Below are positions 13,332 through 57,599 of a stretch of DNA of 64,000 bases, piece by piece. Origin of the DNA: Sphingomonadales bacterium (GTDB taxonomy: Bacteria; Pseudomonadota; Alphaproteobacteria; Sphingomonadales; Sphingomonadaceae); NCBI GenBank assembly GCA_034668705.1, contig JAXDOV010000220.1:478-64477 (forward strand), in the 5' to 3' direction. The translations under genes were made by a program, and so were the position numbers. The notes under the pieces are model-generated. The model was not told where the DNA came from. It worked only from the letters and a program-made list of their open reading frames with translations, and searched no databases. The first letter of the stretch is position 1; each line of letters opens with the position of its first letter.

Positions 13332-13332
13332 A

Positions 13333-33443: not shown

Positions 33444-33665
33444 GTCAAACTCCCAGGAGAGATCGTCTATCCAACCCTTCAATACGCGCGATGGGCACGA
33501 GACGTGCCTTTGCGACCAACGGACGTGCAGATATTTCGATGAATGACCGGAGTTCGCGCAGTTTTATGTGAACCCGCCTCCACGGGCCGAAAACAGCCCA
33601 CATTCGTTCCCCGGACTCATCGGGGTGCGGTGCCGACCATGATCGATCGTCAGCCGGACGTCCGG

Positions 33666-35735
<2,070 letters not shown>

Positions 35736-43067: not shown

Positions 43068-44219
43068 TCAACGGAAATTCCCGGCGCCGGCCGGGCGGAA
43101 GGCGAGGCACCGCGCCGCGAGCGACTGGAAGAATGTGGCGAGGAAACGCTCGATCGCGCCGAAGCCTTTCCTGTCCTGGGCCTTGAGCAGCGCCGCCGCC
43201 GCCGCCCAGCAGGCGATGACGAGGGCGGCATCGGCGAAGGGTGCGACGCCGGTCAGATGGTCCTCCGCGAAAGCCGCGATCTTCCAGTAGAGCACGATGA
43301 TTAGGATGCCGGCGAACAGGCCCAGGCCCGTCGTCGACCGTTTCGGCGGCACGCCGAGCGCGAAGCCGAGCATCGGCAGGCAAAGGCAAAGCCCTCCCGC
43401 CGCGATTCGTCCCGCGGCCGATGCCAAGGCGCGCTCGCGCGAGAATTCGGCGGCGCCGATCGTCCCGAGCTGCGCGAAGGTCAGCCGATCGAGCCGGTTG
43501 CGCGGCGAATCGTTCTCGGCAGGGACTCTGATCTGAAGCGGCACGGTGACGGAGAGCGTCTCGAACTGGACCCGGCGGGGGCCGCCGCTCGTGCGCCAGA
43601 TCGCGATCCCGTTGCGGAGCCCGAGGATGAGGCGATCGTCGCGGGTGCGGATGAGGCTGGCCGAGCCGGCCAGCATGGTGACCGATTTCTGTTCGATGAC
43701 GACGTCGGTCAGCGTGTTCGATTCGGGGCGCAGATGATCGAAATAGAGCTGGGTATGGGGCGGCAGGACGTTGGCGATGCGCGGCTTGAGCGGGATTCCG
43801 AACAGCCCCTGAGCGACGGAATAGCCGATCCGGTCCAGCTTTTCCTCGCCGACCGGCTGGACATAGCCCCGAAGGCCGATCAGCAGGGCGCAGGTGAGGA
43901 GACCGAAGGCGGCCGGCACGAGCAGGATGCGGCGCGTCCCGAGGCCGCTGGCGGCGAGGATGTCGAGCTCCCCGCTCAAGGCCAGACGCCGGAAGGCGAG
44001 GCCGGAGGCCAGGAACAGGGCGATCGGCAGCGCCACCGCGACATATTCGGGAATGAGATAGAAAAAGGCGCGCGCCACCAGCAAGGGCGTCTCGTTGATG
44101 CCGCTCAGGCGCCTGAGAACGACCGGAAAATTCTCGAGGCAGAGGATGACGACGACGATCGCGACGATCGCCGCATAGCGAATGGCGACGAGCTGCGAAA
44201 TGTAGCGGTGGATGATCAG
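43068..44219 (-). CDS. LptF/LptG (YjgP/YjgQ) family permease, solitary
   Basis: Distal 384 codons of ORF 43068..45221, beginning LIIHRYISQLVAIRY (typical LptF/G N-terminus). Six TM segments and a central periplasmic domain. No ATG/GTG is available; the only candidate initiator is CTG 44219-44217, overlapping the upstream stop. Confidence 0.65.
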   Translation of the reverse strand: MIIHRYISQLVAIRYAAIVAIVVVILCLENFPVVLRRLSGINETPLLVARAFFYLIPEYVAVALPIALFLASGLAFRRLALSGELDILAASGLGTRRILLVPAAFGLLTCALLIGLRGYVQPVGEEKLDRIGYSVAQGLFGIPLKPRIANVLPPHTQLYFDHLRPESNTLTDVVIEQKSVTMLAGSASLIRTRDDRLILGLRNGIAIWRTSGGPRRVQFETLSVTVPLQIRVPAENDSPRNRLDRLTFAQLGTIGAAEFSRERALASAAGRIAAGGLCLCLPMLGFALGVPPKRSTTGLGLFAGILIIVLYWKIAAFAEDHLTGVAPFADAALVIACWAAAAALLKAQDRKGFGAIERFLATFFQSLAARCLAFRPAGAGNFR

Positions 44220-45388
44220 GCCGCCCTCGTCCGATAGCCTGCGAGCTGTTCGTAGGAAGCGAAAAGGTCGCGGAAATGATCGCCCATCGTCCTTGCGCGG
44301 CCCGTCGCCCCGGCGCGGATCGCCGCGCGGGGCCTCGGGTGCCGGATGAAGTCCCCGATCGCGCGCGCCGCGTCGGCCGGATCGCCGGCGGCGAATAGCA
44401 GGCCGCCGCTCGCTTCGGCATGATCCGCCGCGCCGCCGCGGTCCGGGGCGATCAGCGGCAGGCCGGATGCCCTCGCCTCCGCGGCGACCATCGAGAAGGT
44501 CTCGGCATCGCAGCCGTGGATCAGGGCGTCGGCGCTGGCGAGGAGGCGGGCGAGGGCGCGCCGGTCCGAAATCGGCGCGACCAGCTGGATATGAGGGTTC
44601 GAGCCGATCTCCCGCTCGAGCCTGGCGCGGTCGCGCCCGTCGCCGACCAGGACCAGGCCGAGCAGATCCCGGGCGCCCGCCGCCGCCGCGGCGCGGATGA
44701 CCATCGGCCATCTCTTCTCCGGCGAATGACGGCCGACGCCGAGCAGCAAGGTGGCGTTGCCGGGCAATCCGCACCGCGCGAGCAGCCGCCTGCGCAGGCC
44801 CTCGTCGCGCAGCCCGGGGGTAAAGACCGAGTCTTCGATGCCCATCGGATTGGTGACGACATTCTTCATGCCGTGGGCGGACAGGCGGCGGGAAAGGCTT
44901 GCGCTCGCGCTGACCACCGCGTCGAAGCCGGCGGAGGTTTCCCGGAAATAGGTCCAGGCGGCATTCAGGCCGCGGTCGATCGTCTCGACCCGGGCGACCG
45001 GGCTCAACAGGCGATAGCCGAAGGCGGCGATCGGATCGGCGTGCATGATCAGCGCGCGCGGGGCGGCGCCCTTCCATTCCCGGACGATCTGGGCGGTGCG
45101 GAACGGCGACGAGGCCTCGACGAAATCGGGCTGCTCGCGGTCGAGCAGGCGGTGGACCGCGTGGTGGCGGGGGAAATAGCGGTAGCGGCGGTCGACCAGC
45201 AATTGCGGCGAGGCCAGCCACTCGATGCGGGCGGCGGCGCCGCGCCGCTCGGTGCGGGTGCGATCTCCGGGCGCGACGATGACGATCTCATGCCCCAGAG
45301 CGGGGCCCAGCAGCAGCTTCTGCTCGATATAGGTCCGCACGCCCCCGCCCGCGGGCGCATAGAAAGCGGCGATGTCGACGATCTTCAC
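44216..45388 (-). CDS. Glycosyltransferase, GT4 (Glycos_transf_1) family
   Basis: 390-aa ORF with a GT-B C-domain: LLLGVGRHSPEKR...AETFSMVAAEARASGLPLIAPDRGG. Confidence 0.8.
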   Translation of the reverse strand: MKIVDIAAFYAPAGGGVRTYIEQKLLLGPALGHEIVIVAPGDRTRTERRGAAARIEWLASPQLLVDRRYRYFPRHHAVHRLLDREQPDFVEASSPFRTAQIVREWKGAAPRALIMHADPIAAFGYRLLSPVARVETIDRGLNAAWTYFRETSAGFDAVVSASASLSRRLSAHGMKNVVTNPMGIEDSVFTPGLRDEGLRRRLLARCGLPGNATLLLGVGRHSPEKRWPMVIRAAAAAGARDLLGLVLVGDGRDRARLEREIGSNPHIQLVAPISDRRALARLLASADALIHGCDAETFSMVAAEARASGLPLIAPDRGGAADHAEASGGLLFAAGDPADAARAIGDFIRHPRPRAAIRAGATGRARTMGDHFRDLFASYEQLAGYRTRAA

Positions 45389-45891
45389 TGGGACAGAGGG
45401 GCGAAACGGAACGGCCCCCGCCGGTAATTGAGCAGGATCCCCGTCGGAGTCAGGCCGGGCCCGGCATTGAACCGCGCCGACGCCGCCTTCGGCTTGGACC
45501 AGCCCAGCTTCGGATTGCCGGTGAAGCCGATGCCGTCGCTCGACAGGCTGAACCGGCGGTCGGCGTTGCGGTCGTGCAGCAGCGACAGGCTATAGGCTCC
45601 GGCCGCGGGGACGCGGATGCAGAGCCTGACCGGCCCGGTCGGCGGGATCCTCTGCTCCACCCGCCGGAAGGCCTTGCCCGCCATGATCAGGATATTGTCG
45701 TCGGCGAGGAAGTCCGCATCGTTCGACGGATAGACTTCGAGCTTCAAGAGGCCCGTCCGGTCCTTGAGGCCGAGCACCTCCACGACGATCGCCGGTCCGC
45801 GTTCGTCCGGGCGGCAACGGCCCTCGGCGATGCCGAGGGTCGGGCTCGACGGGATGAACGGCGCGGCCGCCGCCAGCAGCGCGAGGATCAT
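45385..45891 (-). CDS. DUF2141-like secreted protein
   Basis: Frame of ORF 45385..46362 trimmed to MILALLAAAAPFIPS. 4-nt overlaps on both sides. Confidence 0.6.
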   Translation of the reverse strand: MILALLAAAAPFIPSSPTLGIAEGRCRPDERGPAIVVEVLGLKDRTGLLKLEVYPSNDADFLADDNILIMAGKAFRRVEQRIPPTGPVRLCIRVPAAGAYSLSLLHDRNADRRFSLSSDGIGFTGNPKLGWSKPKAASARFNAGPGLTPTGILLNYRRGPFRFAPLSQ

Positions 45892-46835
45892 CGTGCCCCT
45901 CCCCGGGCGATGCCGTCCGGCACGGCGGCGAGCAGCAGGGCGACGCCGAGATGCGCGCCCAGCACGAGCACGGCCATCATCGCCAGCAGGTCCGCCAAGG
46001 CGGTCTGGCGGCCGACCAGGACGAAGGCGATGCCGGCGAAGACGAGGTCCTTGTTGGTGACGAGCGGCAGCCGGCCGACCAGCAGGTGCAAGGCCGCGAG
46101 GACCACCCACCAGCGCATGCCGACGCCGGGGAGGACCAGGTGCCACATCAAAGCGGTCAGCAGGGTCGTCGCGAGCAGGCGGCCGGCATGGACGAAGGCG
46201 ATGAAGTTGCGGTCGGCGACGGGCAGGCTGAACACGCGGCGCTGCAGGGGCAGCACGGCCAGCGAGCAGACCAGCAGCACGGCCGCGCCGGCATAGAGAT
46301 CGTGGCCGTAGCCGCCGAGAGCGAGCCGGCCGACAAAGGGATAAGCGAGGGCGGCGAGGCAAAGCGTGAAGATATTGCCGACGAGGGCGGAGAGGATCGC
46401 CACGTCCTTGATCGCGCCGAACGGCGCCGCGACCATCGCCGAATTCCGGCGCGACCAGGCGTAGAAATAGACCTCGCCGCTATAGCCGAAGAGGATCTCG
46501 TTGCTGACCATCTTGCGCAGCAGCGGCAGCAGCCCGCCGGCCGGGATCCGCCACAGGCGCCGATAGATCAGCCAGTCGCCGAGCGGCAAAGCGAGATAGC
46601 AAAGGATGAAAATCCCCCAGAAGACGGGGGTCCTGGGGACCATGGTCTGGATGTCGGCGAGGTGAAGCCGCCGGATATTGGCGAGCACGGCGACGATCAT
46701 CGCCGCCGTGAAGGCCGGCCCTATCCAGCGCAACAGGCTCCGGCGGGCCGCGGGGAGCGGCTCGGGATCCGGAACGGACGACAATGGATGCTGGGGAGCG
46801 GCGGCTCCGCCGGTATCGTAGCTGGGCTGAAACAC
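45888..46835 (-). CDS. Polytopic membrane protein, possibly UPF0104/lysyl-PG-synthase-TM (HpnL-like) family
   Basis: 315-aa ORF with ~8 hydrophobic segments. Family assignment from recall only. Confidence 0.55.
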   Translation of the reverse strand: MFQPSYDTGGAAAPQHPLSSVPDPEPLPAARRSLLRWIGPAFTAAMIVAVLANIRRLHLADIQTMVPRTPVFWGIFILCYLALPLGDWLIYRRLWRIPAGGLLPLLRKMVSNEILFGYSGEVYFYAWSRRNSAMVAAPFGAIKDVAILSALVGNIFTLCLAALAYPFVGRLALGGYGHDLYAGAAVLLVCSLAVLPLQRRVFSLPVADRNFIAFVHAGRLLATTLLTALMWHLVLPGVGMRWWVVLAALHLLVGRLPLVTNKDLVFAGIAFVLVGRQTALADLLAMMAVLVLGAHLGVALLLAAVPDGIARGGAR

Positions 46836-46959
46836 GCGTGCTTAATTTCCAGATTGGCATTCCCACAAAGGACGCCGCCGGCCCACCATCTCCGCATCAG
46901 ATTGCATGGCTGCCGACGCTCGACCCCCCCGGATCGTGGACGCGGGCCCCTTGCCACGG

Positions 46960-48141
46960 CTACGGCGCTTTCGCAAGCGCATGCGCCGATCCGCCCTCCC
47001 CGTGCTGGGCGATGGTCCTGACATAGGCTTTGGCCAGGGATGCGTTGACCTCGTCCCAGCCGTAGCGCCGGCTCGCCTGCCAGCCGGCCCGCCCCGCTTC
47101 GCGGCGGGCGGCCTCGTCCCCGCAATAGAAGGCGAGCGCTTCGGCGAAGGCCTCGATGGCCTGGGGAGGGACGAGGCGTCCGGTCCTCCCGTCGGCGACC
47201 AGGCTTTCGCTGCCGGTGGCGATCGCCGCCACCACCGGCAGGCCCGCCGCCATCGCCTCGAGAGTGACGTTGCCGAACGTCTCGGTCACCGACGGGTTGA
47301 ACAGCATGTCCAGCGAGGCCACGGCCCGGCCGAGCTCCCGCCCCTGCCGGAAGCCGGTGAAGACCGCGTCGGGCAGCTTCGCCTCCAGCCAGGCGCGGGC
47401 CGGGCCATCGCCGACCACGAGCACGCGGTGCCGGACGTTGCGGGCGGCGAGGCATTTGATCGAGTCGGCGAAGACGTCGAGCGCCTTTTCCATGACCAGC
47501 CGGCCGACGAAGCCGATCACCGGCTCGTCGTCGGCGATGCCGAGGCTGCGCCGCCAGGCGAGATCGCGGCGGCCGGGATTGAAGATCTCGTCGTCGATGC
47601 CGCGGGTCCAGATCCCGACATTGTGGTTCATCCGCTGCTGCCGAAGCAGCCGGGCCATCGAGCCGGAAGGCGCGAAGATCGCGTCGCAACGCCGGTAGAA
47701 GCGCCGCAACCCCGCCACCACGAGCGGCTCCAGGAAGCCCAGGCCGTAATAGCGCGGATAGGTTTCGAAACGGGTATGGACGGAGGCGACCACCGGCAGA
47801 TCGAGCCGCCGGGCCAGGCTGACCGCCCGGTGGCCGACAATGTCCGGGCTGGCGACGTGGATGATGTTGGGCGCGAAGCGGCCAAGGTCCCGCCGCGCCC
47901 GCGCCGGGAGCATCACCGGGACCCGATATTCCGACCGGCCCGGCACCGTCACGCTGGGAATGTGGACGACCTCGCCGTTGCGCGGAAAGGCGGGTTCCTC
48001 GACCGTCGGCGAATAGATCCTGACCGCAGCCCCCTGCCGCAGCAGATAGCCGACCAGCCGCTGCAGCGACTGCGCCGCGCCGTCCCGCGTATAGTCGTAA
48101 TTGCCGCTGAACAGGGCCACCCGAAGCGCGTCGACGTTCAT
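46960..48141 (-). CDS. Glycosyltransferase, GT4 family (SqdX/SQD2-like)
   Basis: ORF 46960..48420 trimmed to MNVDALRVALFSGNYDYTRDG. C-domain FVGRLVMEKALD...TETFGNVTLEAMAAGLPVV. Confidence 0.8.
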   Translation of the reverse strand: MNVDALRVALFSGNYDYTRDGAAQSLQRLVGYLLRQGAAVRIYSPTVEEPAFPRNGEVVHIPSVTVPGRSEYRVPVMLPARARRDLGRFAPNIIHVASPDIVGHRAVSLARRLDLPVVASVHTRFETYPRYYGLGFLEPLVVAGLRRFYRRCDAIFAPSGSMARLLRQQRMNHNVGIWTRGIDDEIFNPGRRDLAWRRSLGIADDEPVIGFVGRLVMEKALDVFADSIKCLAARNVRHRVLVVGDGPARAWLEAKLPDAVFTGFRQGRELGRAVASLDMLFNPSVTETFGNVTLEAMAAGLPVVAAIATGSESLVADGRTGRLVPPQAIEAFAEALAFYCGDEAARREAGRAGWQASRRYGWDEVNASLAKAYVRTIAQHGEGGSAHALAKAP

Positions 48142-48917
48142 CGGCCGGCCGACGCCCCGTCGAGCGCGGCGGCGAGATCGCCGTACCGGCCGCATCGTCT
48201 CCCCGCGAGCGACGTCCGCACGGTCCGGTCGATGCTCTCGAGCAAAGCCGGCGACCCCTGGTCGCCGGGGTGGAGGGCGATGCGGAGGGTCGGCAGCCGC
48301 TTCAATGCGTGGCGGGCCAAAGCGGCGAAGGCGAGCGAGGAGGCCAGGCGAAAGCGGCTGCGGCTCGCCCAGCCGATCACCGGGCCGCGGGCGAGGATGC
48401 GTCCGTCCGACGGCCGCCACACGCGGAGATGGTCTTCCGCCACCTCGAACCCCTCGTCGGCGAGAGCCTCGCGGGCGCCGTCGCCGTAGAGCCAGGCCGG
48501 CGCCACGAAGCCGGTCACCGGGCGGCCCAAGGCGTCCTCCAGGGCGGCGCGGCCCTCGCGCAGGCGCTGCGTCGCCTCCTCGCGCGACAGGGCCAGGAAC
48601 TCGCCCTCGCGCGCGGTCATGTAATTGGCCTTGAGCCGGGCCAGGCCTTTATGCCCGGTCGATTCGTCGCGGTGGCTCCAGCCGTGGAGCAGCATCTCGA
48701 CTCCGTCCTGCGACCATCGGCGCAGCTTGCGCTGGAAGCCCGGCGACCGGGCCAGCGGCGCCTTCCGCCAGAAATCGGGAACGACGAGCATGGTGAAACG
48801 GGCGCCGCCGAGCAAATCGGTCAGGCGCTCTGAGAGCCGGTCGACTCTGTCCTCGAAAGCCGGCGAGACGTCGTGAATCGAGACGAGGAGGCGCCGCGAC
48901 CGGTTAGAAATTTGCAT
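48138..48917 (-). CDS. DUF2334-like predicted polysaccharide deacetylase
   Basis: 259-aa ORF: LLVSIHDVSPAF, LHGWSHRD. Confidence 0.6.
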   Translation of the reverse strand: MQISNRSRRLLVSIHDVSPAFEDRVDRLSERLTDLLGGARFTMLVVPDFWRKAPLARSPGFQRKLRRWSQDGVEMLLHGWSHRDESTGHKGLARLKANYMTAREGEFLALSREEATQRLREGRAALEDALGRPVTGFVAPAWLYGDGAREALADEGFEVAEDHLRVWRPSDGRILARGPVIGWASRSRFRLASSLAFAALARHALKRLPTLRIALHPGDQGSPALLESIDRTVRTSLAGRRCGRYGDLAAALDGASAGR

Positions 48918-51285
48918 CGAGGGCGATCCTGATGGTGCGCGGCGTCACCGGCGTGATCTGCCTGCGCTGGAAGACGGTGAAAGGGTTGCCGTAGGAGAAG
49001 CGGTTGCCGACGACGTTGCCCAGATTGCTGATGTCGAGCGAGACGCCGAAGCGTCCCAGATCGAGATGCCCCCCCAGGGCCGCCTCCATATACTTGCCCT
49101 GCGGGATGTCCAGTGGCGGCCCGATGCCGAGTTGCGAGCGCCCGACATAGCGAAGCGAACCGTCCACCGTCAGGCGGGCGCCGCGGCCGATACGCGTCTC
49201 GTAGCGGGCCGCGGCCCGCGCGCCGGCTTCGGCGATGTTGGGCAGGCTTCTCTCGTCGGCGGCCAGGAAGTCCGGCGCGGGATGGCTGAGCGCGCTGTCG
49301 GCGAGAAAGGCCGCCGCCTCGATCCGAAGCGAGTCCAGCGGACGCCACATGGCGCGGGCCTCGGCCCCATAGATCCGTCCCCGGCCGATATTGGTGGTGT
49401 ATGGAAGGCCGCGCCGGTCGATCAGATCGGCCTGGATGTCGCTCCACCGTGTCGCCGACAGCACCAGGTCCATGGCCAGCGCGTCGCCCTCCCGGCCGGC
49501 GCGGAACCCCAGTTCCGCGCTGTCCAGCTCGTCGGAGCTGTACCGCTGGGCGGCGGTCGAGACGCCGCTGGCGGCGATGGCAAGCCCGCCGGCCCGGAAC
49601 CCGCCCTCGTAGCGCATGTAGACGAGCAGCGCCGGATCGGCCCGCCAGCTGAGCGCGAAGCTCGGCGTCGCCCGCCCATCCGTCCTGCTATGCTCGCTCC
49701 CGTCCCGCTTGCGGGAGTTGAGCGGGTTGCCGATGCTCTGCGATACGGTCAGCCGGCCGCCGATGCTGGCGATGAGTCCGGATCCGAGGTCGAAGCCGAC
49801 CCGGCCATAGACCGCGGCCTCGTTGACGACGTTCCGCACGCCGGTGATCGGCACCATCGCCTCCGGCGGGCCGATGTTGCGCTCGATCCGGCTCCAGTCG
49901 TGGATGAGGCTCCAGCCGACCACCCAGCCCTTGCCGTTCCGCGAGATTCGCGACAGACGAGTCTCGTTCGACAGCAGGCTGATCCGCACGTCTTCGGTGT
50001 AAAGCCTGAGCCGCTGCGTTCCGCCCGATCCGGTGGCGTCGAACTGGCTGTTGAGCGCGTGGCTGACGAGGCCGGTCGACGAGACCAGCTCCAACGGCCC
50101 CCATCGGCGCCGGACCGTCAACTCGCCGAGCAGATAATCATTGTCGAAGGGCTGCGGAAAATGGGTGCTGTGGGTCAGCGGGGGCAGGCCCCGCTCCGCA
50201 TATTGGCCGTCCTGCCCGGAGATGAACTGGACGACGCCGCCAAGCTCGATCTGCCAGTCGCCCGGCGTGTAGAGCAAGGTCGCCCGGCCGCCGTCGATGG
50301 TCGTGCGGTTGACGTCTTTCGCTCCCCTGCCGAGGTCGTCGATATAGCCCGGCTGCAGCACATGGTAGCCGACCGCCCGCAGGGTGAGCCGGCCCGGCTG
50401 GAGCGGCGCGTTGACGACCGCCGCCAGATCCTCGCCGACATCGCCGTCCTGCATCGCGGCGAGGCCGGCCGAAATCTCGCCATGCCATGCGGACGGATCC
50501 GGCGGGTTGGGAACGACACGAAGGATGCCGCCCAGCGAGCCGGAGCCGTAGAGCGTCCCCTGGGGGCCTTCGAGCAGCTCCACCCGCCGCACGTCGTAGA
50601 GACGCAAATCGGGATCGGGCGCGTTGAAGGTGAGGCGCACGTCGCCGAGATACTGGCCGACGATCGACTGGCTCGGTCCGTTGAAGCTGCTGTCGGCGAC
50701 GCCGCGGATATAGAGCTTGTCGCGGCCCGGCCCGAGGCTGGTCGAGGCCAGCATCGGCAGGCGCGCCAGCGTCGCCTCGCTTCCCGCCGCGCCCATCCTC
50801 CTCGCCTCCTGCGGGGTCAGCTCGACGAGGCGGGCGGTGCCGGCGAGCTCGTCGAGGGCGATCCCCTGCTTGGTCGCGGTGACGACGATGTCCGCCAATG
50901 GCGACTGCGGCGCGGGCGCGGAAAGCTGCTGCGGCGGTGCCGGCGGGGCCCGGCGCGCCTCAGTCGGCGGCCGGGTCGGCGACCTGGGCGCGGGCTCGAT
51001 CCGCACCGCGGCCAGCCCGACGAACTCGAAGCGGAAGCCGCTGCCGGCGAGCAGACGATCGAGCGCCCTGCGCACCGGCATCCGGCCGCGCACAGGCCCG
51101 ACGCGGCGGCCGGCGAGACGCGGATCGTTGGCGACGATGGTCAGACGGGCCTGTTCGGCCAGTGCGACGAGCGCCGCGGTCAGCGGCCCGGCAGGAATGT
51201 CGAAGGAAACGGAATCGGCGGCCTCGACCGGCGTCGCGGCAAGACAGATCGTAAAGGCGCCGGCGAGCGCCCTACCTGCCCGCAC
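48904..51285 (-). CDS. TonB-dependent transducer (receptor with N-terminal STN signalling domain, FecA-like)
   Basis: ORF 48904..51372. GTG 51285 preferred, giving signal peptide RAGRALAGAFTICLAATPVEA. STN-like FDIPAGPLTAALVALAEQARL, plug DIVVTATKQG, C-terminal ...RIALDANF. Confidence 0.85.
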   Translation of the reverse strand: MRAGRALAGAFTICLAATPVEAADSVSFDIPAGPLTAALVALAEQARLTIVANDPRLAGRRVGPVRGRMPVRRALDRLLAGSGFRFEFVGLAAVRIEPAPRSPTRPPTEARRAPPAPPQQLSAPAPQSPLADIVVTATKQGIALDELAGTARLVELTPQEARRMGAAGSEATLARLPMLASTSLGPGRDKLYIRGVADSSFNGPSQSIVGQYLGDVRLTFNAPDPDLRLYDVRRVELLEGPQGTLYGSGSLGGILRVVPNPPDPSAWHGEISAGLAAMQDGDVGEDLAAVVNAPLQPGRLTLRAVGYHVLQPGYIDDLGRGAKDVNRTTIDGGRATLLYTPGDWQIELGGVVQFISGQDGQYAERGLPPLTHSTHFPQPFDNDYLLGELTVRRRWGPLELVSSTGLVSHALNSQFDATGSGGTQRLRLYTEDVRISLLSNETRLSRISRNGKGWVVGWSLIHDWSRIERNIGPPEAMVPITGVRNVVNEAAVYGRVGFDLGSGLIASIGGRLTVSQSIGNPLNSRKRDGSEHSRTDGRATPSFALSWRADPALLVYMRYEGGFRAGGLAIAASGVSTAAQRYSSDELDSAELGFRAGREGDALAMDLVLSATRWSDIQADLIDRRGLPYTTNIGRGRIYGAEARAMWRPLDSLRIEAAAFLADSALSHPAPDFLAADERSLPNIAEAGARAAARYETRIGRGARLTVDGSLRYVGRSQLGIGPPLDIPQGKYMEAALGGHLDLGRFGVSLDISNLGNVVGNRFSYGNPFTVFQRRQITPVTPRTIRIALDANF

Positions 51286-52237
51286 GCGGCGGGGGCTCGA
51301 ATATCCAGAAGCGGCCGGCGCGGCGAACGCTGAGGCTGAGCACCAGGGCCATACGATTGAGGGTTGCCGCATCGTCCTTGTCTACCCGAATCGAGCCAGT
51401 GAACGAAGTGGCTGCCAGGCGCGGGTCGAGACGAATGTCGGCGCCGGTGGTTCGCGCGAGGTCGCCCACCACCATGGCGAGGGAGGCGCCCTGATAGCTG
51501 AGCTGCCCTTTCCGCCATCCGCCGACATGGCGGGGATCGTTGCGGCCGAGCACGGCCCCGCCGCCGCCTTCGCTCCGCAGCGTCTGCCCGGCCGATAGCG
51601 GGATCGCCGGGCCCGCCGGATCGAACAGCACGGCGCCCTCACCCACTTCCAGGCGAAGCCGCCGATCCTCGCTGACGACGTTGAAGACGGTTCCCAGGTC
51701 GCGGAGTTTATGCCCGCCGGCGACGAGCTCGAACGGATGCGCCGGGTCGTGGCGGATCGTGAAGGTCGCCTCGCCCGCGGCCAGCTCGGCGTAACGGGCA
51801 TCGCGGCGATCGAGCACCAGGCGGCTGCTTCCGTTCAGCTCGACCGAGCCGCCGCCCGGCAGCTTCACGCTCTTCTGCTCGCCCGCGGCGGTCGCCACTT
51901 CATAGCGCGCGCTCGTCCCGCCGGTCCCCCACAAGCCGGCGAAGGCGAGGATGAGCGCAGCCGCCACGGCTCCGACGGGCGCGAACCAGCGGCGGCGCGT
52001 CCGGCCGTCCCGATCGGGAAGGGGGTCGGGATCGTTGGCGGCGGCCGCGGCGACCGGCGGCAGCGAAGCGGCGTCGAACCGAGCGTCCGCCGACGCGACG
52101 GCGTCATAGGCGGCGGATCTCGCCTCGCCCTGCTCCAGCCAGCGGACGAACGCCTCCCACTCCTCGGCGCCGCCGTCGCGAAGCCGAATCCGCCATGCGA
52201 TCGCCTCGCCGATCGTCTCTGTTTCAGATCGCATCAT
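51272..52237 (-). CDS. FecR-family anti-sigma factor/sensor
   Basis: ORF 51272..52285 trimmed to MMRSETETIGEAIAWRIRL. Single TM segment and a periplasmic FecR domain. Confidence 0.8.
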   Translation of the reverse strand: MMRSETETIGEAIAWRIRLRDGGAEEWEAFVRWLEQGEARSAAYDAVASADARFDAASLPPVAAAAANDPDPLPDRDGRTRRRWFAPVGAVAAALILAFAGLWGTGGTSARYEVATAAGEQKSVKLPGGGSVELNGSSRLVLDRRDARYAELAAGEATFTIRHDPAHPFELVAGGHKLRDLGTVFNVVSEDRRLRLEVGEGAVLFDPAGPAIPLSAGQTLRSEGGGGAVLGRNDPRHVGGWRKGQLSYQGASLAMVVGDLARTTGADIRLDPRLAATSFTGSIRVDKDDAATLNRMALVLSLSVRRAGRFWIFEPPPRAGR

Positions 52238-52835
52238 CACCCTGTCTCTCCGGGAGACGCCGCGGCGGCGAGGTTTCCGCATCAAGCGAGGCTTCGACGT
52301 CGACCAGCACGCGATAGGCCCGCTGCAGATGCTTCTCCACCGCGCTGACGCTGATCCCGAGCTCGCCGGCGATCTCCCGCTGGGGCAGGTCGTCGATGCG
52401 GAACCTTCGAAAGACCAGAAGAGTCCGCTCCGGCAGATGGGCCAGCCGGTCGGAAACGAGGCGCAGGCGCTCGCGGGCGATCAGCTCGCGTTCGGAGGAC
52501 GGTCTGTCGTCGGCGCCGTCCCCGGCGCCGTGCGACGCCTCCGTCCACTTGCCCTCGCGGGCGACCCGGCGGGCGGATGTCCGCCGGCTGTCGAGCAGGA
52601 GATTGTCGAGCATCCGGTAGAGATAGGCCCGCGGCTCGGCGACCGGGCCGGTGGCGCGCGCAGCCAGCTTGACGAACATGTCCTGCAGCAGGTCCTCCGC
52701 TTCCTCGGCGGCGACGCGGCGCGCGGCGAGGAACCGCAGCAGATCCGCGCGGATCGCCATGAACGAAGCGGTCAGGCCGCTGCTCTGGGACTGGGACTGA
52801 GGGATTCGTCGAGTCCTGCTGGAGGGCCGCGCCAT
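52224..52835 (-). CDS. ECF (sigma-70 family, FecI-like) sigma factor
   Basis: ORF 52224..52928 trimmed to ATG 52835. Region 2 AEDLLQDMFVKL, region 4 QREIAGELGISVSAVEKHLQRA. Confidence 0.85.
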   Translation of the reverse strand: MARPSSRTRRIPQSQSQSSGLTASFMAIRADLLRFLAARRVAAEEAEDLLQDMFVKLAARATGPVAEPRAYLYRMLDNLLLDSRRTSARRVAREGKWTEASHGAGDGADDRPSSERELIARERLRLVSDRLAHLPERTLLVFRRFRIDDLPQREIAGELGISVSAVEKHLQRAYRVLVDVEASLDAETSPPRRLPERQGDDAI

Positions 52836-52870
52836 CTTATTCGTCGCTGCCGGCGAGGACAATTGCCGGG

Positions 52871-53725
52871 TCAGGCGGCCGCGGCCGGCACGTCCGGTTC
52901 TTCGCTCCGTCCCTCCCGCGGAGTCCACCAGGCGAGGCCGGCGGCCGCAGCCAGCATGTCGATCGGCGCCGCGGCAAGAAAATCGAGCTCGCGGGCGCGA
53001 GACGCGGCGACCGGACCGGCGGCATGGGCGGCGGCGGGATGGCAGATGAGGAGGTGCAGCGACGCCGATGAGGTGAGCCAGCGCCGGAACATGGCCGGAT
53101 AATCCGCCTTGTGGCGAAAATTATAGAGGCCGGCGAAGCTGGTATTGGTTTGCAGACCCTTTGCGGCAGCCTGGCGCGCGAGGCCCGACGACAGCAATGA
53201 CGAGCGCGCCGCCAGCCAAGGATAGACGCCGCGCCCGACGATCGCCTGGAGCCGGTCCTCGCAGGTCCGGACCCAGGCGTCCGGCGCGCGGCGGGCGGCG
53301 GTGTCGAGGAAGATCCGCCGGATGCCCGGAAGCATATGGCTGTGCTGATGCGCATCGACGAAGTCCGGGGCCCGGTCGAAGAGCAGCTCGAACCGGTCGT
53401 ATTGGCGCTCGATCTCGGCCGAGATCGCCGCCAGCGGCAGCCGGCCCGCAAAAGCGGCGGCGGTCAGCCGATCGACGTGGGGAAGCCGGCCCTCCGGCGC
53501 GAGGGCGGATCTGGCGAGCGCATCGCCGCCGCCGCTCAGCGTCAGGTGAAGCCCGATCGCCACATCCGCCGTCCGCGCCAGAAGCGGCGCGCCCGCCGCC
53601 GCTTCGCCGCCGCCGACCATTACCGTCGCGGCGTTGATCCGTCGCTTGCCGGCAAGGGCCAGGATCGCTTCGGTGGCGGCTTCGCCGTCGCCGAAATCGT
53701 CGGCGCACAGGATCAGGCGTCGCAT
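52871..53725 (-). CDS. ChbG/HpnK (YdjC-like) carbohydrate deacetylase family protein
   Basis: ORF 52871..53929 trimmed to MRRLILCADDFG; also DAHQHSHMLP. Confidence 0.75.
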   Translation of the reverse strand: MRRLILCADDFGDGEAATEAILALAGKRRINAATVMVGGGEAAAGAPLLARTADVAIGLHLTLSGGGDALARSALAPEGRLPHVDRLTAAAFAGRLPLAAISAEIERQYDRFELLFDRAPDFVDAHQHSHMLPGIRRIFLDTAARRAPDAWVRTCEDRLQAIVGRGVYPWLAARSSLLSSGLARQAAAKGLQTNTSFAGLYNFRHKADYPAMFRRWLTSSASLHLLICHPAAAHAAGPVAASRARELDFLAAAPIDMLAAAAGLAWWTPREGRSEEPDVPAAAA

Positions 53726-54501
53726 TCCGTCCCTCCCCAGTCGCGCTCGCGAAGGCGGGCGCTGTCGAGGCCGCGGCTGGCCAGCCGCTTCGACAGGAAG
53801 TTGCGGAAATAGCGGTCCTGCAGGACGAAGGGGGTCGCATGATAAAGCAGTCGCTCGGCCAGCGACCAGCGAACGGCGTTGAGGTCGTTGCGGCGGTCCG
53901 AGGGGAGGCACCAGAAGGTGCGATGCCAAACCTGCCGTCCGTGCCGCAACACGCGGTTGATGATCTCGTGATCGGCGAGGACATAGGGCCAGACGCTCGC
54001 GTCATAGCCCCCGGCGGCATCGAGCGCGGCGACCCGGAAGCACTGGCCGGCGCCGCCGGTATGCGCCTGCCGGGGCAGCAGGATGTTGACGGCCAGCTGA
54101 TAGACCGCCGAGGCGATCCGCCGCGGCCAGGAAGCGGCCGGCGCGAGATAATAAGCCGAAGCCACCGCCGCGTCCGCTTTCTCGTCCAGGAGCCGCTCCG
54201 CCACGGCGAGATAATGGCGCGGATAGGTGGTGTCGGCGTCGCAGGTGGCGACGAACTCGCTGCGGACCTCCCGCATGCCGCGGGCGAGCGCGGGCACCGG
54301 ACCCGGCTTCGATTCGGCGACGACGATTCCGTCCAGGCCGAAGCGCGCGAGGAGGCGCCGGGCGATGTCGCCGCTGCCGTCGGTGGAGCCGTTGTCGACG
54401 AGGATCAGCCGGAACTTGCGGGTCTGGGCGGCGAGCGACGCGAGGGCGCGCGGCAGATACGCCGCCTCGTTATAGACCGGCATCACCACCGACCACCGCA
54501 T
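53713..54501 (-). CDS. Glycosyltransferase, GT2 family
   Basis: ORF 53713..54609 trimmed to MRWSVVMPVYNEAAYL; also LVDNGSTDGS and CDADT (DXD). Confidence 0.8.
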   Translation of the reverse strand: MRWSVVMPVYNEAAYLPRALASLAAQTRKFRLILVDNGSTDGSGDIARRLLARFGLDGIVVAESKPGPVPALARGMREVRSEFVATCDADTTYPRHYLAVAERLLDEKADAAVASAYYLAPAASWPRRIASAVYQLAVNILLPRQAHTGGAGQCFRVAALDAAGGYDASVWPYVLADHEIINRVLRHGRQVWHRTFWCLPSDRRNDLNAVRWSLAERLLYHATPFVLQDRYFRNFLSKRLASRGLDSARLRERDWGGTECDA

Positions 54502-54739
54502 CGCGGCGCCGCTTTTCGCGCTCGGCCCCGCAGGACGGCCGGCCGACGACTCCTCGTCGTGACTCGCTCGATCCGGGTCGGGGGGTCGTTGCCCTGATCT
54601 CTGTGCCACTCGCTCTTCCGGATTGCGACGGATCGTGGCGAAGTTAGAGAGTCGTTAGCCATAGCTGAAGTCATATTTTTGCAACGCCCCGGCGCGGGAC
54701 GGAAACGCAAGGTGCCGCCCGATCCGCTCCGCCTCGGCG

Positions 54740-54937
54740 TCAGAGCTGGTTGAGCTGGGCCTGGATGGCGGCGACGTCGGCGGCGTTGAGCGGCATGTCG
54801 GAGGCCATTTGCTGGTTGTTGCCGGCGGCGTCGCCGTCGGGCGCGGCGAAGTCATAGGCCATCCAGCAGATCCCCGCCGCCCAGAGCAGCGCCATCCAGC
54901 GCGAACGGAAGATGGTCTGGTAGCGGAACGGGAACAT
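54740..54937 (-). CDS. Small (65 aa) membrane protein
   Basis: ORF-track entry with strong G/C third-position bias and one hydrophobic segment (WMALLWAAGICWMAY). Confidence 0.55.
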   Translation of the reverse strand: MFPFRYQTIFRSRWMALLWAAGICWMAYDFAAPDGDAAGNNQQMASDMPLNAADVAAIQAQLNQL

Positions 54938-54961: not shown

Positions 54962-55972
54962 TTAAGGAAAAGCTGCCGTCTCAGCTTCCAGCGCCAGCAG
55001 GGCGAAGGTGGCGAGCCAATGCTCGCCCATATAGTCGCCGGCGACGTGGGGCAGGCTGGCGTCGAGATGCTCGACGGCGGTGCGGCGGGCGAGCTCGGCC
55101 AGCTCCGGCTCCAGCGCCTCGGCGAGCCCGCGCCAACACCAGGCGCGGCTCAGGTTGACGCCGTCGAGATGGGCGATCTTGCCGTCCGAGCGGTCGGAGA
55201 CGAAGGCGGGGGTGAAGAGGCTGCGCGGCTCGCCGGCGGCGAGGTCGGGCAGGAAGGCGTCGAACCAGGCGCGGAAGCGGGCATCGGGGAGGACGCGGCG
55301 CATCAGCAGCGCCTCGGTGAGCGCGGAGGAGAGGAAGTCGTCGCCGCCCGGCTCCCAGGCGGGGCAATTGCGGTCGCCGGCATAATAAGCCTCCGCCCGT
55401 TCCCGGATGAGCGCTGCCAGCGCCGCGTCATTCGCCTCGGCCCAGTCGAGCGCGAGGATCATGGCGAAGGCGGTATTGAAATGGGTGCCGGTGCGGATCG
55501 GATAGGTGAGCCTGGGAAGAAAGGACTCGAACCGTTCGGCGAAGGCGGCGGCGAGCGGCGCCAGCTCGGCCGCCCATGGGCGGTCCTCGTGCCGTTGCGC
55601 CTCGAGGTGGAGGGCGAGCAGCCACGCCCAGCCATAAGGCCGCTCGAAGCCGCCGGTATAGGCGCGATCGAGATAGGCCAGCTCCCCGGCGACCTTGGCC
55701 GGCGTCAGCATCTCGGCGGCCAGCGCCTCGACCCGCCGCGCCTCGGCCAGGTCCGGGAACAGCCGCCGCACGCGCAGCATCAGCCACCAGCCATGGACGC
55801 AGCTGTGCCAGTCAAAGCTGCCGAAGAAGATCGGGTGGAGCGCGCGCGGGCCGAGCAGATCCTCCGGCCCCTCCAACACATGGTCGAGCTTGTGCGGATA
55901 TTCGCGGGCGACATGGCCGAGCGCGATGGCGGCGAAGCGGCCGGCGGTTTCGGGCGTGAGGGCGCGGGTCAT
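54962..55972 (-). CDS. DUF2891-family protein
   Basis: ORF 54962..56662 trimmed to MTRALTPETAGRF (ATGA overlap with the upstream gene); contains FGSFDWHSCVHGWW. Confidence 0.7.
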   Translation of the reverse strand: MTRALTPETAGRFAAIALGHVAREYPHKLDHVLEGPEDLLGPRALHPIFFGSFDWHSCVHGWWLMLRVRRLFPDLAEARRVEALAAEMLTPAKVAGELAYLDRAYTGGFERPYGWAWLLALHLEAQRHEDRPWAAELAPLAAAFAERFESFLPRLTYPIRTGTHFNTAFAMILALDWAEANDAALAALIRERAEAYYAGDRNCPAWEPGGDDFLSSALTEALLMRRVLPDARFRAWFDAFLPDLAAGEPRSLFTPAFVSDRSDGKIAHLDGVNLSRAWCWRGLAEALEPELAELARRTAVEHLDASLPHVAGDYMGEHWLATFALLALEAETAAFP

Positions 55973-56922: not shown

Positions 56923-57599
56923 GAGACGCGCTTCCCGCGTTTCGAGAGCGTTCGGTCGAGCAGCAGCAGGCGCGTGGAATGGATCAGGAAGGCGAGGATA
57001 GCGGTGGGGATCGACCAGACCGCCAGCTCGAGCGGCGCGAGGTTGTAGCCGTAGGTGGCGAGGGTCTGCTGAATGAGGACGATCGAGCCGATGGCGATGA
57101 AGATGTCCTCGCCGAAGAATACGCCGACATTGTCGGTGGCGGCCGACCAGCTCTTCACTTTCTCCTCGGTCGCCGCGTCCAGCGCGCCGTGCTGCTTCTC
57201 GGCGGCGGCGAGCGCCATCGGCGCGACCAGGGGGCGGACGGTCTGGGGATGGCCGGCGATCGAGATCAGGCCGAGCGAGGCGGTGATCTGCCGGAAGGCA
57301 AGATAGACGATCAGCAGCCGCCCGACGGTCGCCGCCTTGATGCTCCGGATCACCGCCGCGGCGCGCTGCTGCAGGCCGTAGCGCTCGAGCAGGCCGACCA
57401 CGGGCAGCACGACCCAGACGATGGCGATGATGCGGTTGTCGTTGAACGCCTTGCCGAACAAAGAGACGATCTCGACCAGCCCCTTGCCCGCGATCAGGCC
57501 GGTCGCGATCGCCGCGCCGGTGACGACGAGCAAAGGGTTGAGCCGCAGCGCGAAGCCGATGACGACGATCGCGATGCCGGCGAGAAGGAAATAGTTCAC
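56919..57599 (-). CDS. DUF969-family membrane protein (putative 5-oxoproline transporter subunit)
   Basis: 226-aa polytopic ORF, 4-nt overlap with the oxoprolinase gene. Confidence 0.7.

What the first reader, a model, noticed from the sequence alone, without database searches (positions are those of the whole stretch)
43068..54501. Eleven co-directional genes: three glycosyltransferases, two deacetylase-like proteins, membrane proteins and an LptF/G-like permease. Candidate amino-sugar glycolipid (glycosphingolipid?) assembly/export locus
All genes are on the minus strand. Overlaps are 13 nt (53713/53725), 14 nt (52224/52237, 51272/51285, 48904/48917) and 4 nt (48138/48141, 45888/45891, 45385/45388, 44216/44219). 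The only two gaps are 35 nt and 124 nt.
Gene order: GT2, YdjC/HpnK-like deacetylase, ECF sigma, FecR, TonB transducer, DUF2334 deacetylase-like, SQD2-like GT4, UPF0104/HpnL-like membrane protein, DUF2141, GT4, LptF/G-like permease.
A GT2 plus an HpnK-type deacetylase plus an HpnL-type membrane protein is the logic used to put a free glucosamine on a lipid in hopanoid modification (HpnI/K/L). SQD2-like GT4 enzymes make glucuronosyl lipids.
Sphingomonads lack LPS. As I recall for S. paucimobilis GSL-4A, they carry glycosphingolipids whose glycan is Man-Gal-GlcN-GlcA-ceramide, with a non-acetylated GlcN.
Inference: this block could extend and export such a glycolipid. I know of no described locus with this composition.
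Basis: inference. Interest (0 to 1): 0.7.

Follow-up and report, generated by a model that had tools for sequence, protein, structure and literature searches.

The report
Amino-sugar membrane-lipid operon in a sphingomonad
A tightly packed set of eleven genes in a Sphingomonadales bacterium is built around a widely conserved but unstudied operon related to the newly described glucosaminyl-lipid genes of Pseudomonas, and it is a good, testable candidate for the still unknown step that puts a free glucosamine on sphingomonad glycosphingolipids.

Summary
The eleven minus-strand genes, their overlaps and the two gaps are as described. Ten of eleven domain calls hold. The exception is the "UPF0104/HpnL-like" membrane protein (G8), which matches no known family by any test.

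The block is a composite. Its conserved core, seen in 80 fetched Sphingomonadales loci, is:
- a DUF2334 deacetylase (G6)
- a variable glycosyltransferase slot
- the G8 membrane protein
- DUF2141 (G9)
- a GT4 (G10)

G6 and G10 are the nearest relatives of GpgD and GpgS, which make glucosaminyl-phosphatidylglycerol in P. aeruginosa (2025). Both score below those families' cut-offs.

An ECF sigma/FecR/TonB-transducer trio flanks the core in 17 of 80 loci, usually abutting G6. An LptF-like permease (G11) follows it in 5. The GT2–YdjC pair is specific to this lineage.

G7, which fills the slot here, is a highly conserved housekeeping GT4. It is probably the glucuronosyl-ceramide synthase, but this is unproven.

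Best reading: a signal-induced pathway that adds a de-N-acetylated hexosamine to a membrane lipid and exports it. The acceptor is most likely GlcA-ceramide; a phosphatidylglycerol or other glycerolipid acceptor is the main rival.

The hopanoid HpnI/K/L analogy fails membership tests. This is a new variant of a known kind.

The parts
53713..54501 (-). G1: small soluble GT2 glycosyltransferase (262 aa)
   Evidence: Pfam Glycos_transf_2, 87.6 bits. HpnI scores only 20.6 bits against a cut-off of 310. G1-type GT2 genes fill the variable slot between G6 and G8 in L023 and L075.
52871..53725 (-). G2: YdjC-family carbohydrate deacetylase (284 aa)
   Evidence: Pfam YdjC, 149 bits. ChbG scores 62.8 and HpnK 56.6 bits, both far below their cut-offs. 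It is not found near the core in any of the 80 related loci.
52224..52835 (-). G3: ECF (FecI-like) sigma factor; start codon uncertain
   Evidence: Sigma70_r2 and r4_2; TIGR02937, 70 bits, above its cut-off. Orthologues sit next to the core in 17 of 80 loci.
51272..52237 (-). G4: FecR-type anti-sigma/transducer
   Evidence: FecR 52.7 bits; DUF4880 24.3 bits.
48904..51285 (-). G5: TonB-dependent transducer with N-terminal STN signalling domain
   Evidence: STN, Plug and TonB_dep_Rec_b-barrel. In 10 of 11 loci where G6 follows, its 3' end lies -11 to +19 nt from G6.
48138..48917 (-). G6: DUF2334 deacetylase, GpgD-like; core gene
   Evidence: DUF2334, 76.5 bits. Its sole NCBIfam hit is NF053788, the GlcNAc-PG deacetylase, at 151 bits against a cut-off of 280. 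More than 564 relatives were found in GTDB genomes, and the best 80 are nearly all titled Sphingomonadales.
46960..48141 (-). G7: GT4 lipid glycosyltransferase in the variable slot; probable housekeeping GlcA-ceramide synthase orthologue (inference)
   Evidence: NF053787 165 bits; DAG-glucosyltransferase models 35-67 bits. The rank-120 homologue is still 72% identical, at 392-393 aa. Orthologues stand alone elsewhere in other genomes. It lies in the slot only here and in L003, L004 and L007.
45888..46835 (-). G8: polytopic inner-membrane protein of an unannotated family; sits where the GpgF/HexF flippase would be; core gene
   Evidence: 1088 homologues, none with a Pfam domain. AF2 model is all-helical, pLDDT 81.5. 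No PDB fold match, no UPF0104 signal. Present in 73 of 80 loci.
45385..45891 (-). G9: DUF2141 protein with a hydrophobic N-terminus (probably periplasmic)
   Evidence: DUF2141, 52 bits. Present in 60 of 80 loci. Paralogues sit next to crtG in Sphingomonadales (PMC5989583).
44216..45388 (-). G10: GT4, GpgS-like; the conserved core glycosyltransferase
   Evidence: NF053787 168 bits over residues 1-360, with the next family at 56 bits. Best PDB relative is the lipid mannosyltransferase PimB'. Present in 71 of 80 loci.
43068..44219 (-). G11: solitary LptF-like permease with a non-canonical CTG start overlapping the TGA of G10
   Evidence: LptF_LptG 134 bits. LptF TIGR04407 scores 123.5 (cut-off 230) against 53.6 for LptG. 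PDB LptF chains align from residue 1. Start-codon analysis. It follows G10 in L006, L009, L010 and L038, and is inverted in L062.
54502..54739 (-). Upstream intergenic region with an AT-rich patch; putative promoter region of G1 (inferred)
   Evidence: Sequence read. No consensus sigma-70 match and no Fur-box-like site.
43080..43095 (-). G+C-rich hairpin with a weak T tail at the 3' end of G11; possible operon terminator
   Evidence: The number of terminator-like sites in the region equals chance, so this is weak evidence.

Best explanation
The block is a signal-inducible operon for making and exporting an amino-sugar membrane glycolipid.

Shown by homology:
- G10 is a GT4 of the GpgS/SQD2-like lipid-glycosyltransferase group.
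- G6 is a DUF2334 deacetylase like GpgD.
- Together they form the same two-step logic as P. aeruginosa gpgSD and C. difficile hexSD: a cytoplasmic transfer of an N-acetylhexosamine to a membrane lipid, then de-N-acetylation to a free, cationic amino sugar.

Inferred:
- In Sphingomonadales the acceptor is glucuronosyl-ceramide (GSL-1), made here by G7. The product would be the GlcN-GlcA-ceramide core of the oligoglycosyl glycosphingolipids (GSL-3/4).
- The slot between G6 and G8 carries whichever further transferase a lineage uses to extend the glycan. In this organism G1 (GT2) and G2 (YdjC) may add and deacetylate one more sugar.
- G8 (a new membrane-protein family) flips the product, periplasmic G9 (DUF2141) handles it, and the LptF paralogue G11 feeds it to the Lpt bridge towards the outer membrane.
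- The ECF sigma/FecR/TonB-transducer trio switches G5-G11 on in response to an unknown extracellular ligand.
For: - NCBIfam: G6's only hit is the GlcNAc-PG deacetylase (151 bits). The top hit of both G10 and G7 is the GlcNAc-PG synthase (168 and 165 bits). The published function of gpgSDF is in PMC12713373.
- The core G6-G8-(G9)-G10 is conserved in 71-80 of 80 loci titled almost entirely as Sphingomonadales.
- 29 loci have no second transferase but keep G6 and G10. This ties the deacetylase substrate to G10.
- The slot varies: cluster-4 GT4 in 35 loci, G7 in 3, GT2 in 2. That is what a conserved inner sugar with lineage-specific outer sugars would predict.
- G7 is a very conserved, normally stand-alone GT4 of 392-393 aa. 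Its length matches the characterised Cer-GlcAT enzymes of 392 and 394 aa (PMC13318209, Table S7). It has been recruited into or next to the core in two different arrangements (window/L003/4/7, and L038).
- L038 carries 9 of the 11 genes in another order.
- LptF/G paralogues are required for sphingolipid export in Caulobacter, and Sphingomonas keeps a full Lpt system without LPS.
- The TBDR-G6 junction is -11 to +19 nt in 10 of 11 loci. The trio is linked to the core in three different arrangements.
- The glycosyltransferases for GSL glycan extension are still unknown (PMC13028669).
- From my own memory (not checked here): GSL-3/4 carry non-acetylated GlcN on GlcA. N. capsulatum is reported to make Gal-GlcN-GlcA-Cer, and its locus L037 has exactly one deacetylase and two GT4 genes.
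Against: - No lipid was measured, and the only characterised homologues act on phosphatidylglycerol or a glyceroglycolipid.
- G6, G7 and G10 all score well below the equivalog cut-offs, so donor and acceptor cannot be read from them.
- The identity of G7 with the ceramide glucuronosyltransferase could not be tested, because no reference sequence was reachable.
- G8 has no detectable relation to any flippase. Its role is assigned by position only.
- G11 accompanies the core in only 5 of 80 loci and the trio in 17 of 80. G2 is seen nowhere else.
- No spt or other ceramide gene lies in the window or was identified in the flanks examined.
- No sigma-dependent promoter was found.
Confidence: 0.45

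Rival explanations
1. This is a true functional analogue of gpgSDF/hexSDF acting on a glycerolipid. G10 puts GlcNAc on phosphatidylglycerol, or on a glucuronosyl- or glucosyl-diacylglycerol. G6 deacetylates it to a zwitterionic or cationic lipid that lowers surface charge. Sphingolipids are not involved.
For: The only experimentally characterised relatives of G6 and G10 make GlcN-PG. The hexSDF product is a glyceroglycolipid. Both enzymes lack signal peptides and TM segments, like GpgS and GpgD (sequences).
Against: - Scores are a third to a half of the equivalog cut-offs.
- The UPF0104 flippase that accompanies GpgS/D is replaced by an unrelated membrane protein plus DUF2141.
- There is recurrent linkage to an LptF paralogue and to G7.
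- All close relatives found are in a sphingolipid-producing order.
- I know of no report of GlcN-PG in sphingomonads (memory; weak).
Confidence: 0.3
2. The block is a juxtaposition of independent units: a GT2-YdjC pair, an ordinary iron/siderophore cell-surface signalling trio, a lipid module and a stray LptF paralogue. Tight packing reflects a compact genome rather than one pathway, and the trio regulates only its own receptor.
For: Only G6, G8, G9 and G10 are conserved together. Novosphingobium loci have the core between glycogen genes with no trio. G1-G2 are unique to this lineage. The co-directional run extends well beyond the block.
Against: - The TBDR stop abuts or overlaps G6 in 10 of 11 loci across several genera.
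- The trio is linked to the core in three different arrangements, and L038 repeats 9 of the 11 genes in another order.
- G1-type GT2 genes occupy the core's slot in L023 and L075.
- No Fur-box-like site was found.
Confidence: 0.12
3. The block is an exopolysaccharide, PNAG-like or protein-glycosylation cluster. The GT4/GT2 enzymes build a glycan on a carrier and the deacetylases modify the polymer.
For: DUF2334 and YdjC belong to carbohydrate-deacetylase superfamilies. G6 also touches Polysacc_deac_1 at 29 bits. The cluster-4 GT4 found in other loci resembles PEP-CTERM/Pgl-type transferases.
Against: No priming phosphoglycosyltransferase, Wzx/Wzy, synthase, Wza/Wzc or ABC exporter was found in the block or in the window genes scanned. 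G6's only NCBIfam match is a lipid deacetylase.
Confidence: 0.08
4. The block makes a hopanoid head group (bacteriohopanetetrol-glucosamine) by HpnI/HpnK/HpnL-like proteins, following the reader's analogy.
For: G1 is GT2 and G2 is in the same Pfam family (YdjC) as HpnK.
Against: HpnI scores 20.6 bits against 310 and HpnK 56.6 against 232.6. G8 has no HpnL/UPF0104 signal. No shc or hpn genes were identified in the window genes scanned by Pfam. G1-G2 are not conserved with the core.
Confidence: 0.03

Closest known systems
gpgSDF of Pseudomonas aeruginosa (glucosaminyl-phosphatidylglycerol; Khan, Palmer & Guan 2025, PMC12713373)
   Same: A cytoplasmic GT4 and a COG3233/DUF2334 deacetylase sit next to a polytopic membrane protein in one operon. 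G6's only NCBIfam hit and G10's top hit are GpgD and GpgS.
   Different: - Scores are below the equivalog cut-offs (151 vs 280; 168 vs 480).
- The membrane protein is not UPF0104.
- There are extra DUF2141, second or third transferases, a second deacetylase, an LptF paralogue and a cell-surface signalling trio.
- The acceptor lipid is unknown and may be a glycosphingolipid.
hexSDF of Clostridioides difficile (aminohexosyl-hexosyl-diradylglycerol), as described in PMC12713373
   Same: A synthase-deacetylase-flippase module adds an amino sugar on top of an existing glycolipid. This is the logic proposed here for GlcA-ceramide.
   Different: It comes from a Gram-positive organism with a glycerolipid acceptor.
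Bacterial ceramide glycosyltransferases: Cer-GlcAT of Zymomonas/Sphingobium (Okino 2020) and Sgt1/Sgt2 of Caulobacter (PMC6445935)
   Same: These are GT4 enzymes that build GSL head groups in Alphaproteobacteria. G7 matches Cer-GlcAT in length and in order-wide conservation.
   Different: Orthology was not tested because no reference sequences were available. None of the described loci includes a deacetylase, G8 or DUF2141. The step that adds GlcN is undescribed.
LptF2/LptG2 sphingolipid transporter of Caulobacter (bioRxiv 10.64898/2026.04.12.717747)
   Same: An LptF-family paralogue is encoded beside lipid head-group genes rather than with LPS genes.
   Different: G11 is a single gene without an LptG-like partner. 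It sits beside glycosylation genes rather than spt, occurs in only 5 of 80 loci, and is fast-evolving (28-45% identity between genera).
Fec-type cell-surface signalling (FecI/FecR/FecA)
   Same: An ECF sigma, a FecR anti-sigma and a TonB-dependent transducer with an STN domain.
   Different: All three fall far below the FecI/R/A equivalog scores. The transducer gene runs straight into lipid-modification genes rather than transport genes. The ligand is unknown.
Hopanoid HpnI/HpnK/HpnL
   Same: The general idea of GT2 + YdjC deacetylase + membrane protein producing a free glucosamine on a lipid.
   Different: All three membership tests failed (G8).

Membership tests
gpgSDF (GlcN-PG synthesis) | GpgS equivalog: NF053787 at or above 480 bits | tested here: not met
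   G10 scores 168.1 bits and G7 165.3 bits. This is the top family for both, but far below the cut-off.
gpgSDF (GlcN-PG synthesis) | GpgD equivalog: NF053788 at or above 280 bits; DUF2334/COG3233 | tested here: inconclusive
   G6 scores 151.4 bits, below the cut-off, though this is its only NCBIfam hit. Pfam DUF2334 is met at 76.5 bits.
gpgSDF (GlcN-PG synthesis) | GpgF: UPF0104/PF03706 flippase-like membrane protein in the operon | tested here: not met
   G8 and 24 homologues have no Pfam or NCBIfam hit. hhalign against YbhN gave probability 0.1%. There is no PDB fold match.
gpgSDF (GlcN-PG synthesis) | Product is GlcNAc-PG / GlcN-PG | not testable with these tools
   This needs lipidomics or heterologous expression.
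Hopanoid HpnI/HpnK/HpnL | HpnI TIGR03472 at or above 310 bits | tested here: not met
   G1 scores 20.6 bits.
Hopanoid HpnI/HpnK/HpnL | HpnK TIGR03473 at or above 232.6 bits | tested here: not met
   G2 scores 56.6 bits. It shares only the Pfam family YdjC.
Hopanoid HpnI/HpnK/HpnL | HpnL (UPF0104) membrane protein | tested here: not met
   G8 has no hit.
LptF/LptG permeases | Pfam PF03739 over the full length | tested here: met
   G11 scores 134 bits over residues 5-329. PDB LptF chains align from residue 1.
LptF/LptG permeases | LptF equivalog TIGR04407 at or above 230 bits | tested here: not met
   G11 scores 123.5 bits, against 53.6 for LptG. It is a divergent paralogue.
LptF/LptG permeases | Adjacent LptG-type partner | tested here: not met
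   No second LptF_LptG gene was found among the window genes scanned, nor next to the orthologues in L006, L009, L010 and L038.
Fec-type cell-surface signalling | ECF sigma + FecR-domain anti-sigma + TonB-dependent transducer with STN domain, adjacent | tested here: met
   Pfam hits. TIGR02937 scores 70.3 bits, above its 42.9 cut-off.
Fec-type cell-surface signalling | FecI/FecR/FecA equivalogs (ferric citrate) | tested here: not met
   FecI scores 35 vs 260, FecR 56.6 vs 385, and FecA 19.9 vs 1100.
Ceramide glucuronosyltransferase (Cer-GlcAT/Sgt1) | Orthology to AAV90581.1 / ATI80198.1 / ACL94258.1 | not testable with these tools
   The reference sequences could not be fetched and the Okino 2020 paper is not held. 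The indirect evidence is consistent: length 393 aa, order-wide conservation above 70%, and stand-alone orthologues.

The most novel reading that the evidence does not exclude
The conserved Sphingomonadales operon (DUF2334 deacetylase, G8, DUF2141, GT4) is the missing machinery that installs the free glucosamine of the oligoglycosyl glycosphingolipids that replace LPS in sphingomonads. On this reading G8 is a new lipid-flippase family, DUF2141 is a periplasmic lipid-handling protein, and a dedicated LptF paralogue exports the product. In several lineages the whole pathway is switched on by a TonB-dependent cell-surface signalling system. This would be outer-membrane charge remodelling analogous to the amino-sugar modifications of lipid A, but carried out on a sphingolipid.
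Probability: 0.35. Interest if true: 0.75.

Novelty: new variant of a known kind. Interest (0 to 1): 0.55.

Why it matters
Sphingomonads build their outer membrane from glycosphingolipids instead of LPS. Only the first glycosylation step (GlcA-ceramide) has known genes. Recent papers state that the transferases for the rest of the glycan are unknown.

This locus offers a concrete, order-wide candidate for the glucosamine step and its deacetylase. It also gives candidate flipping and export components, and a regulatory input.

The candidates can be tested with a few deletions and lipid mass spectrometry. If the acceptor proves to be phosphatidylglycerol instead, the result would still be useful. 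It would extend the newly found GlcN-PG pathway to another bacterial order, with a different membrane partner.

Tried and rejected
- **G8 as UPF0104/MprF-like flippase.** Tested five ways: Pfam and NCBIfam on G8 and 24 homologues, a profile against PDB sequences, hhalign against E. coli YbhN, and an AF2 model searched with Foldseek against the PDB. All were negative.
- **G9 structure.** A single-sequence AF2 model failed (pLDDT 40), so it was not used.
- **Promoters and terminators.** The scan gave chance-level results.
- **Fur box.** None found upstream of G1 or G3.
- **Shared promoter motif.** The upstream regions of 17 G3 orthologues show no shared motif by eye.
- **Placing G10 relative to GpgS/Sgt2.** I used the 1.84-billion-representative search plus cluster look-ups. 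The hits were unnamed metagenome proteins or carried a generic 'alpha-1,6-mannosyltransferase' label.
- **Rfam.** The only match in the window is a tRNA, outside the block.
- **First tblastn synteny pass.** It missed the cluster-4 GT4 in the slot. This was corrected by protein-level clustering.
- **Flanking genes in Novosphingobium.** These are glycogen metabolism genes and were rejected as unrelated.

Full report
**1. Observation**

The region 43068-54501 carries eleven minus-strand ORFs at the coordinates given. The window is about 70% G+C, and the frame with 80-97% G+C at third positions follows these ORFs.

There are eight overlaps of 4, 13 or 14 nt and two gaps of 35 and 124 nt.

Pfam confirms ten of the eleven assignments:

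| Gene | Pfam assignment |
|---|---|
| G1 | GT2 |
| G2 | YdjC |
| G3 | ECF sigma |
| G4 | FecR |
| G5 | TonB-dependent receptor with STN, plug and barrel |
| G6 | DUF2334 |
| G7, G10 | GT4 |
| G9 | DUF2141 |
| G11 | LptF_LptG |

Three corrections are needed.

- *G8 is not demonstrably UPF0104/HpnL.*
  - G8 and 24 homologues have no Pfam or NCBIfam hit.
  - A family profile finds no relative among PDB sequences.
  - hhalign against E. coli YbhN, a PF03706 protein, gives probability 0.1%.
  - A confident all-helical AF2 model (pLDDT 81.5) has no Foldseek match in the PDB at E<=0.001.
- *G11 has no canonical start codon that would include its first transmembrane helix.*
  - Residue 1 is a CTG overlapping the TGA of G10. 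No ATG, GTG or TTG lies in frame within 140 codons upstream.
  - PDB LptF chains and the Pfam and TIGRFAM models align from residue 1-5.
  - The orthologue in L010 shows the same lack.
  - An automatic gene call on an identical contig starts at V48.
- *Co-directionality is not a special feature of this block.* The minus-strand run continues through an unrelated block of oxoprolinase, DUF969, DUF979 and DUF2891 upstream. It also continues through pentapeptide and RibD_C genes downstream.

**2. Whose genome**

Homologues of G6, G7 and G8 carry names from Allosphingosinicella, Sphingosinicella, Sphingomonas, Novosphingobium and relatives. A scan of one genome per GTDB species found more than 564 loci encoding a G6 relative, and the best 80 are almost all titled Sphingomonadales.

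Among the window genes scanned, the rest are ordinary chromosomal housekeeping genes such as metH, metF, scpAB, tatABC, an RND pump and purQ. None of them is an spt, ceramide, LPS or hopanoid gene.

**3. The block is a composite around a conserved core**

I compared the eleven proteins with the 80 loci by tblastn, and by gene calling plus clustering.

| Component | Loci (of 80) |
|---|---|
| G6 | 80 (by design) |
| G8 | 73 |
| G10 | 71 |
| G9 | 60 |
| Sigma/FecR/transducer trio | 17 |
| G7-like | 6 |
| G11-like | 5 |
| G1-like | 3 |
| G2 | 0 |

A variable slot lies between G6 and G8.

| Slot content | Loci |
|---|---|
| Generic GT4 (cluster 4) | 35 |
| Nothing | 29 |
| G7-type GT4 (the closest relatives, L003, L004, L007, as in the window) | 3 |
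| G1-type GT2 (L023, L075) | 2 |

The flanks differ between lineages. In Novosphingobium they are glycogen genes.

The minimal unit is therefore a deacetylase, a membrane protein and a GT4. In gene content this matches the three-gene S-D-F modules described below.

**4. Closest characterised relatives**

- G6's only NCBIfam hit is NF053788, the N-acetylglucosaminyl-phosphatidylglycerol deacetylase (151 bits, cut-off 280).
- The best hit of both G10 and G7 is NF053787, the corresponding synthase (168 and 165 bits, cut-off 480). The next family for G10 scores 56 bits.

These models derive from P. aeruginosa gpgSDF. There, a GT4 puts GlcNAc on phosphatidylglycerol, a COG3233 deacetylase frees the amine, and a UPF0104 protein is the presumed flippase. 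C. difficile hexSDF is the stated analogue on a glyceroglycolipid (PMC12713373).

So the chemistry 'N-acetylhexosamine onto a membrane lipid, then de-N-acetylation' is well supported by homology. The sub-threshold scores mean that neither donor nor acceptor can be transferred from the known enzymes.

The hopanoid analogy fails its tests. G1 scores 20.6 bits against HpnI (cut-off 310). G2 scores 56.6 bits against HpnK (cut-off 232.6).

**5. Which lipid**

Four observations favour a glycosphingolipid acceptor. None is decisive.

1. *G7 behaves like a housekeeping enzyme.*
   - Its 120th-best homologue is still 72% identical, against about 61% for G6 and about 49% for G8.
   - Its orthologues are 392-393 aa, and in other genomes they stand alone next to PadR or rpoBC.
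   - The characterised ceramide glucuronosyltransferases are 392 and 394 aa and are said to be distributed across the order (PMC13318209 Table S7; PMC13028669).
   - G7 also scores against diacylglycerol glucosyltransferase models.
   - It has been brought into the core in the window lineage, and next to it in a different arrangement in L038.
2. *An LptF paralogue follows G10 in four genera-level lineages*. LptF2/G2 paralogues are required for sphingolipid export in Caulobacter. Sphingomonas is reported to keep a whole Lpt system although it lacks LPS.
3. *The UPF0104 partner of the glycerolipid systems is replaced by an unrelated membrane protein plus DUF2141.*
4. *The variable second transferase fits a conserved inner amino sugar with lineage-specific outer sugars.* From memory, GSL-3/4 have the structure X-Gal-GlcN-GlcA-ceramide with a non-acetylated GlcN. 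N. capsulatum is reported to make the trisaccharide form, and its locus L037 has one deacetylase and two GT4 genes.

Against this:
- The only proven homologues act on glycerolipids.
- I could not compare G7 with the reference enzymes.
- No ceramide genes are linked.

**6. Regulation**

The ECF sigma, the FecR protein and the STN-bearing TonB-dependent transducer form a Fec-type cell-surface signalling set.

Where G6 follows the transducer, its aligned start lies -11 to +19 nt from the end of the transducer's alignment in 10 of 11 loci. These loci span Sphingobium, Sphingosinicella, Rhizorhabdus and several Sphingomonas.

The trio also occurs in other positions:
- directly upstream of G8, with G6 moved behind G10 (L028, L039, L061, L071)
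- downstream of the core (L038, L060)

Linkage in three arrangements argues for a functional tie. The simplest model is that ligand binding at the outer membrane releases the sigma factor, which then transcribes the transducer gene and, by read-through, the lipid genes.

The ligand is unknown. I found no Fur-box-like site, no consensus promoter and no shared upstream motif.

**7. Proposed mechanism**

Steps (b) and (c) rest on homology. Steps (a) and (d)-(g) are inferred.

- (a) G7 makes GlcA-ceramide.
- (b) G10 adds an N-acetylhexosamine at the cytoplasmic face.
- (c) G6 removes the acetyl group.
- (d) G1 and G2, a lineage-specific addition, may add and deacetylate a further sugar.
- (e) G8 translocates the lipid.
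- (f) G9, which has a hydrophobic N-terminus and whose paralogues accompany the carotenoid gene crtG in the same order (PMC5989583), handles it in the periplasm.
- (g) G11 pairs with the housekeeping LptG and LptB to extract it towards the outer membrane.

The net effect would be to neutralise the carboxylate of GSL-1 with an amine. This is a functional parallel to the amino-sugar modifications of lipid A.

**8. Verdict**

The module belongs to a kind described in 2025 (gpgSDF/hexSDF). It is a distinct, order-wide variant with the following differences:
- a new membrane partner
- a DUF2141 protein
- a modular transferase slot
- in some lineages, a dedicated LptF paralogue and a cell-surface signalling input

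Its main value is as a testable candidate for the unknown glucosamine step of sphingomonad glycosphingolipid synthesis.

Noticed in passing
window 43068-44219 (start at 44217-44219); L010 14871; L006 14891: The LptF-like gene has no ATG, GTG or TTG that would include its first transmembrane helix. A CTG overlaps the TGA of the upstream gene (CTGA). The L010 orthologue likewise has no canonical start between an upstream stop and the conserved N-terminus. Automatic gene callers truncate the protein by 47 residues.
   Followed up: partly
window 29195-29271 and about 29300-34000: A tRNA-Arg(TCT) sits at the edge of a stretch with G+C of 0.60-0.61, against about 0.70 elsewhere. The stretch contains an Nramp transporter (31033-32340). 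This may be a genomic island inserted at a tRNA.
   Followed up: no
window about 4000-8000: A second low-G+C stretch (0.62-0.63) holds an S41 peptidase and a glutathione S-transferase.
   Followed up: no
L001-L080, between the G6 and G8 orthologues: The gene slot between the deacetylase and the membrane protein is modular across Sphingomonadales. It holds a generic GT4 in 35 loci, nothing in 29, a G7-type GT4 in 3 and a GT2 in 2.
   Followed up: yes
L028, L039, L061, L071: In these loci the deacetylase gene lies behind the GT4 instead of in front, and the TonB-dependent transducer gene is followed by the membrane-protein gene at a gap of about 100-200 nt.
   Followed up: partly
L038 (Croceibacterium MAG) 9995-19785: This locus carries 9 of the window's 11 genes in a different order: G6 G8 G9 G10 G11 G7 G3 G4 G5.
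   Followed up: partly
window 45385-45891 (G9) and the literature: DUF2141 proteins are also encoded next to the carotenoid hydroxylase gene crtG in many Sphingomonadales (PMC5989583). This is a second lipid-related context for an uncharacterised family.
   Followed up: no
window 54962-61312: A co-directional block of 5-oxoprolinase (hydantoinase A/B-like, 1238 aa), DUF969, DUF979 and DUF2891 lies directly upstream. It is separated from G1 by a 65-aa ORF (54740-54937, no Pfam hit) and a 238-nt gap.
   Followed up: partly
window 9573-15497: Methionine synthase is split into two genes: a homocysteine-binding part (12297-13331) and a pterin/B12/activation part (9573-12224). Downstream of these lie metF and an ArsR-HTH/SAM-methyltransferase fusion.
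   Followed up: no
L083 9182-9820; L084 9783-10412: In two unrelated genomes the stand-alone orthologue of G7 is followed by a convergently oriented (opposite-strand) PadR-family regulator gene.
   Followed up: no
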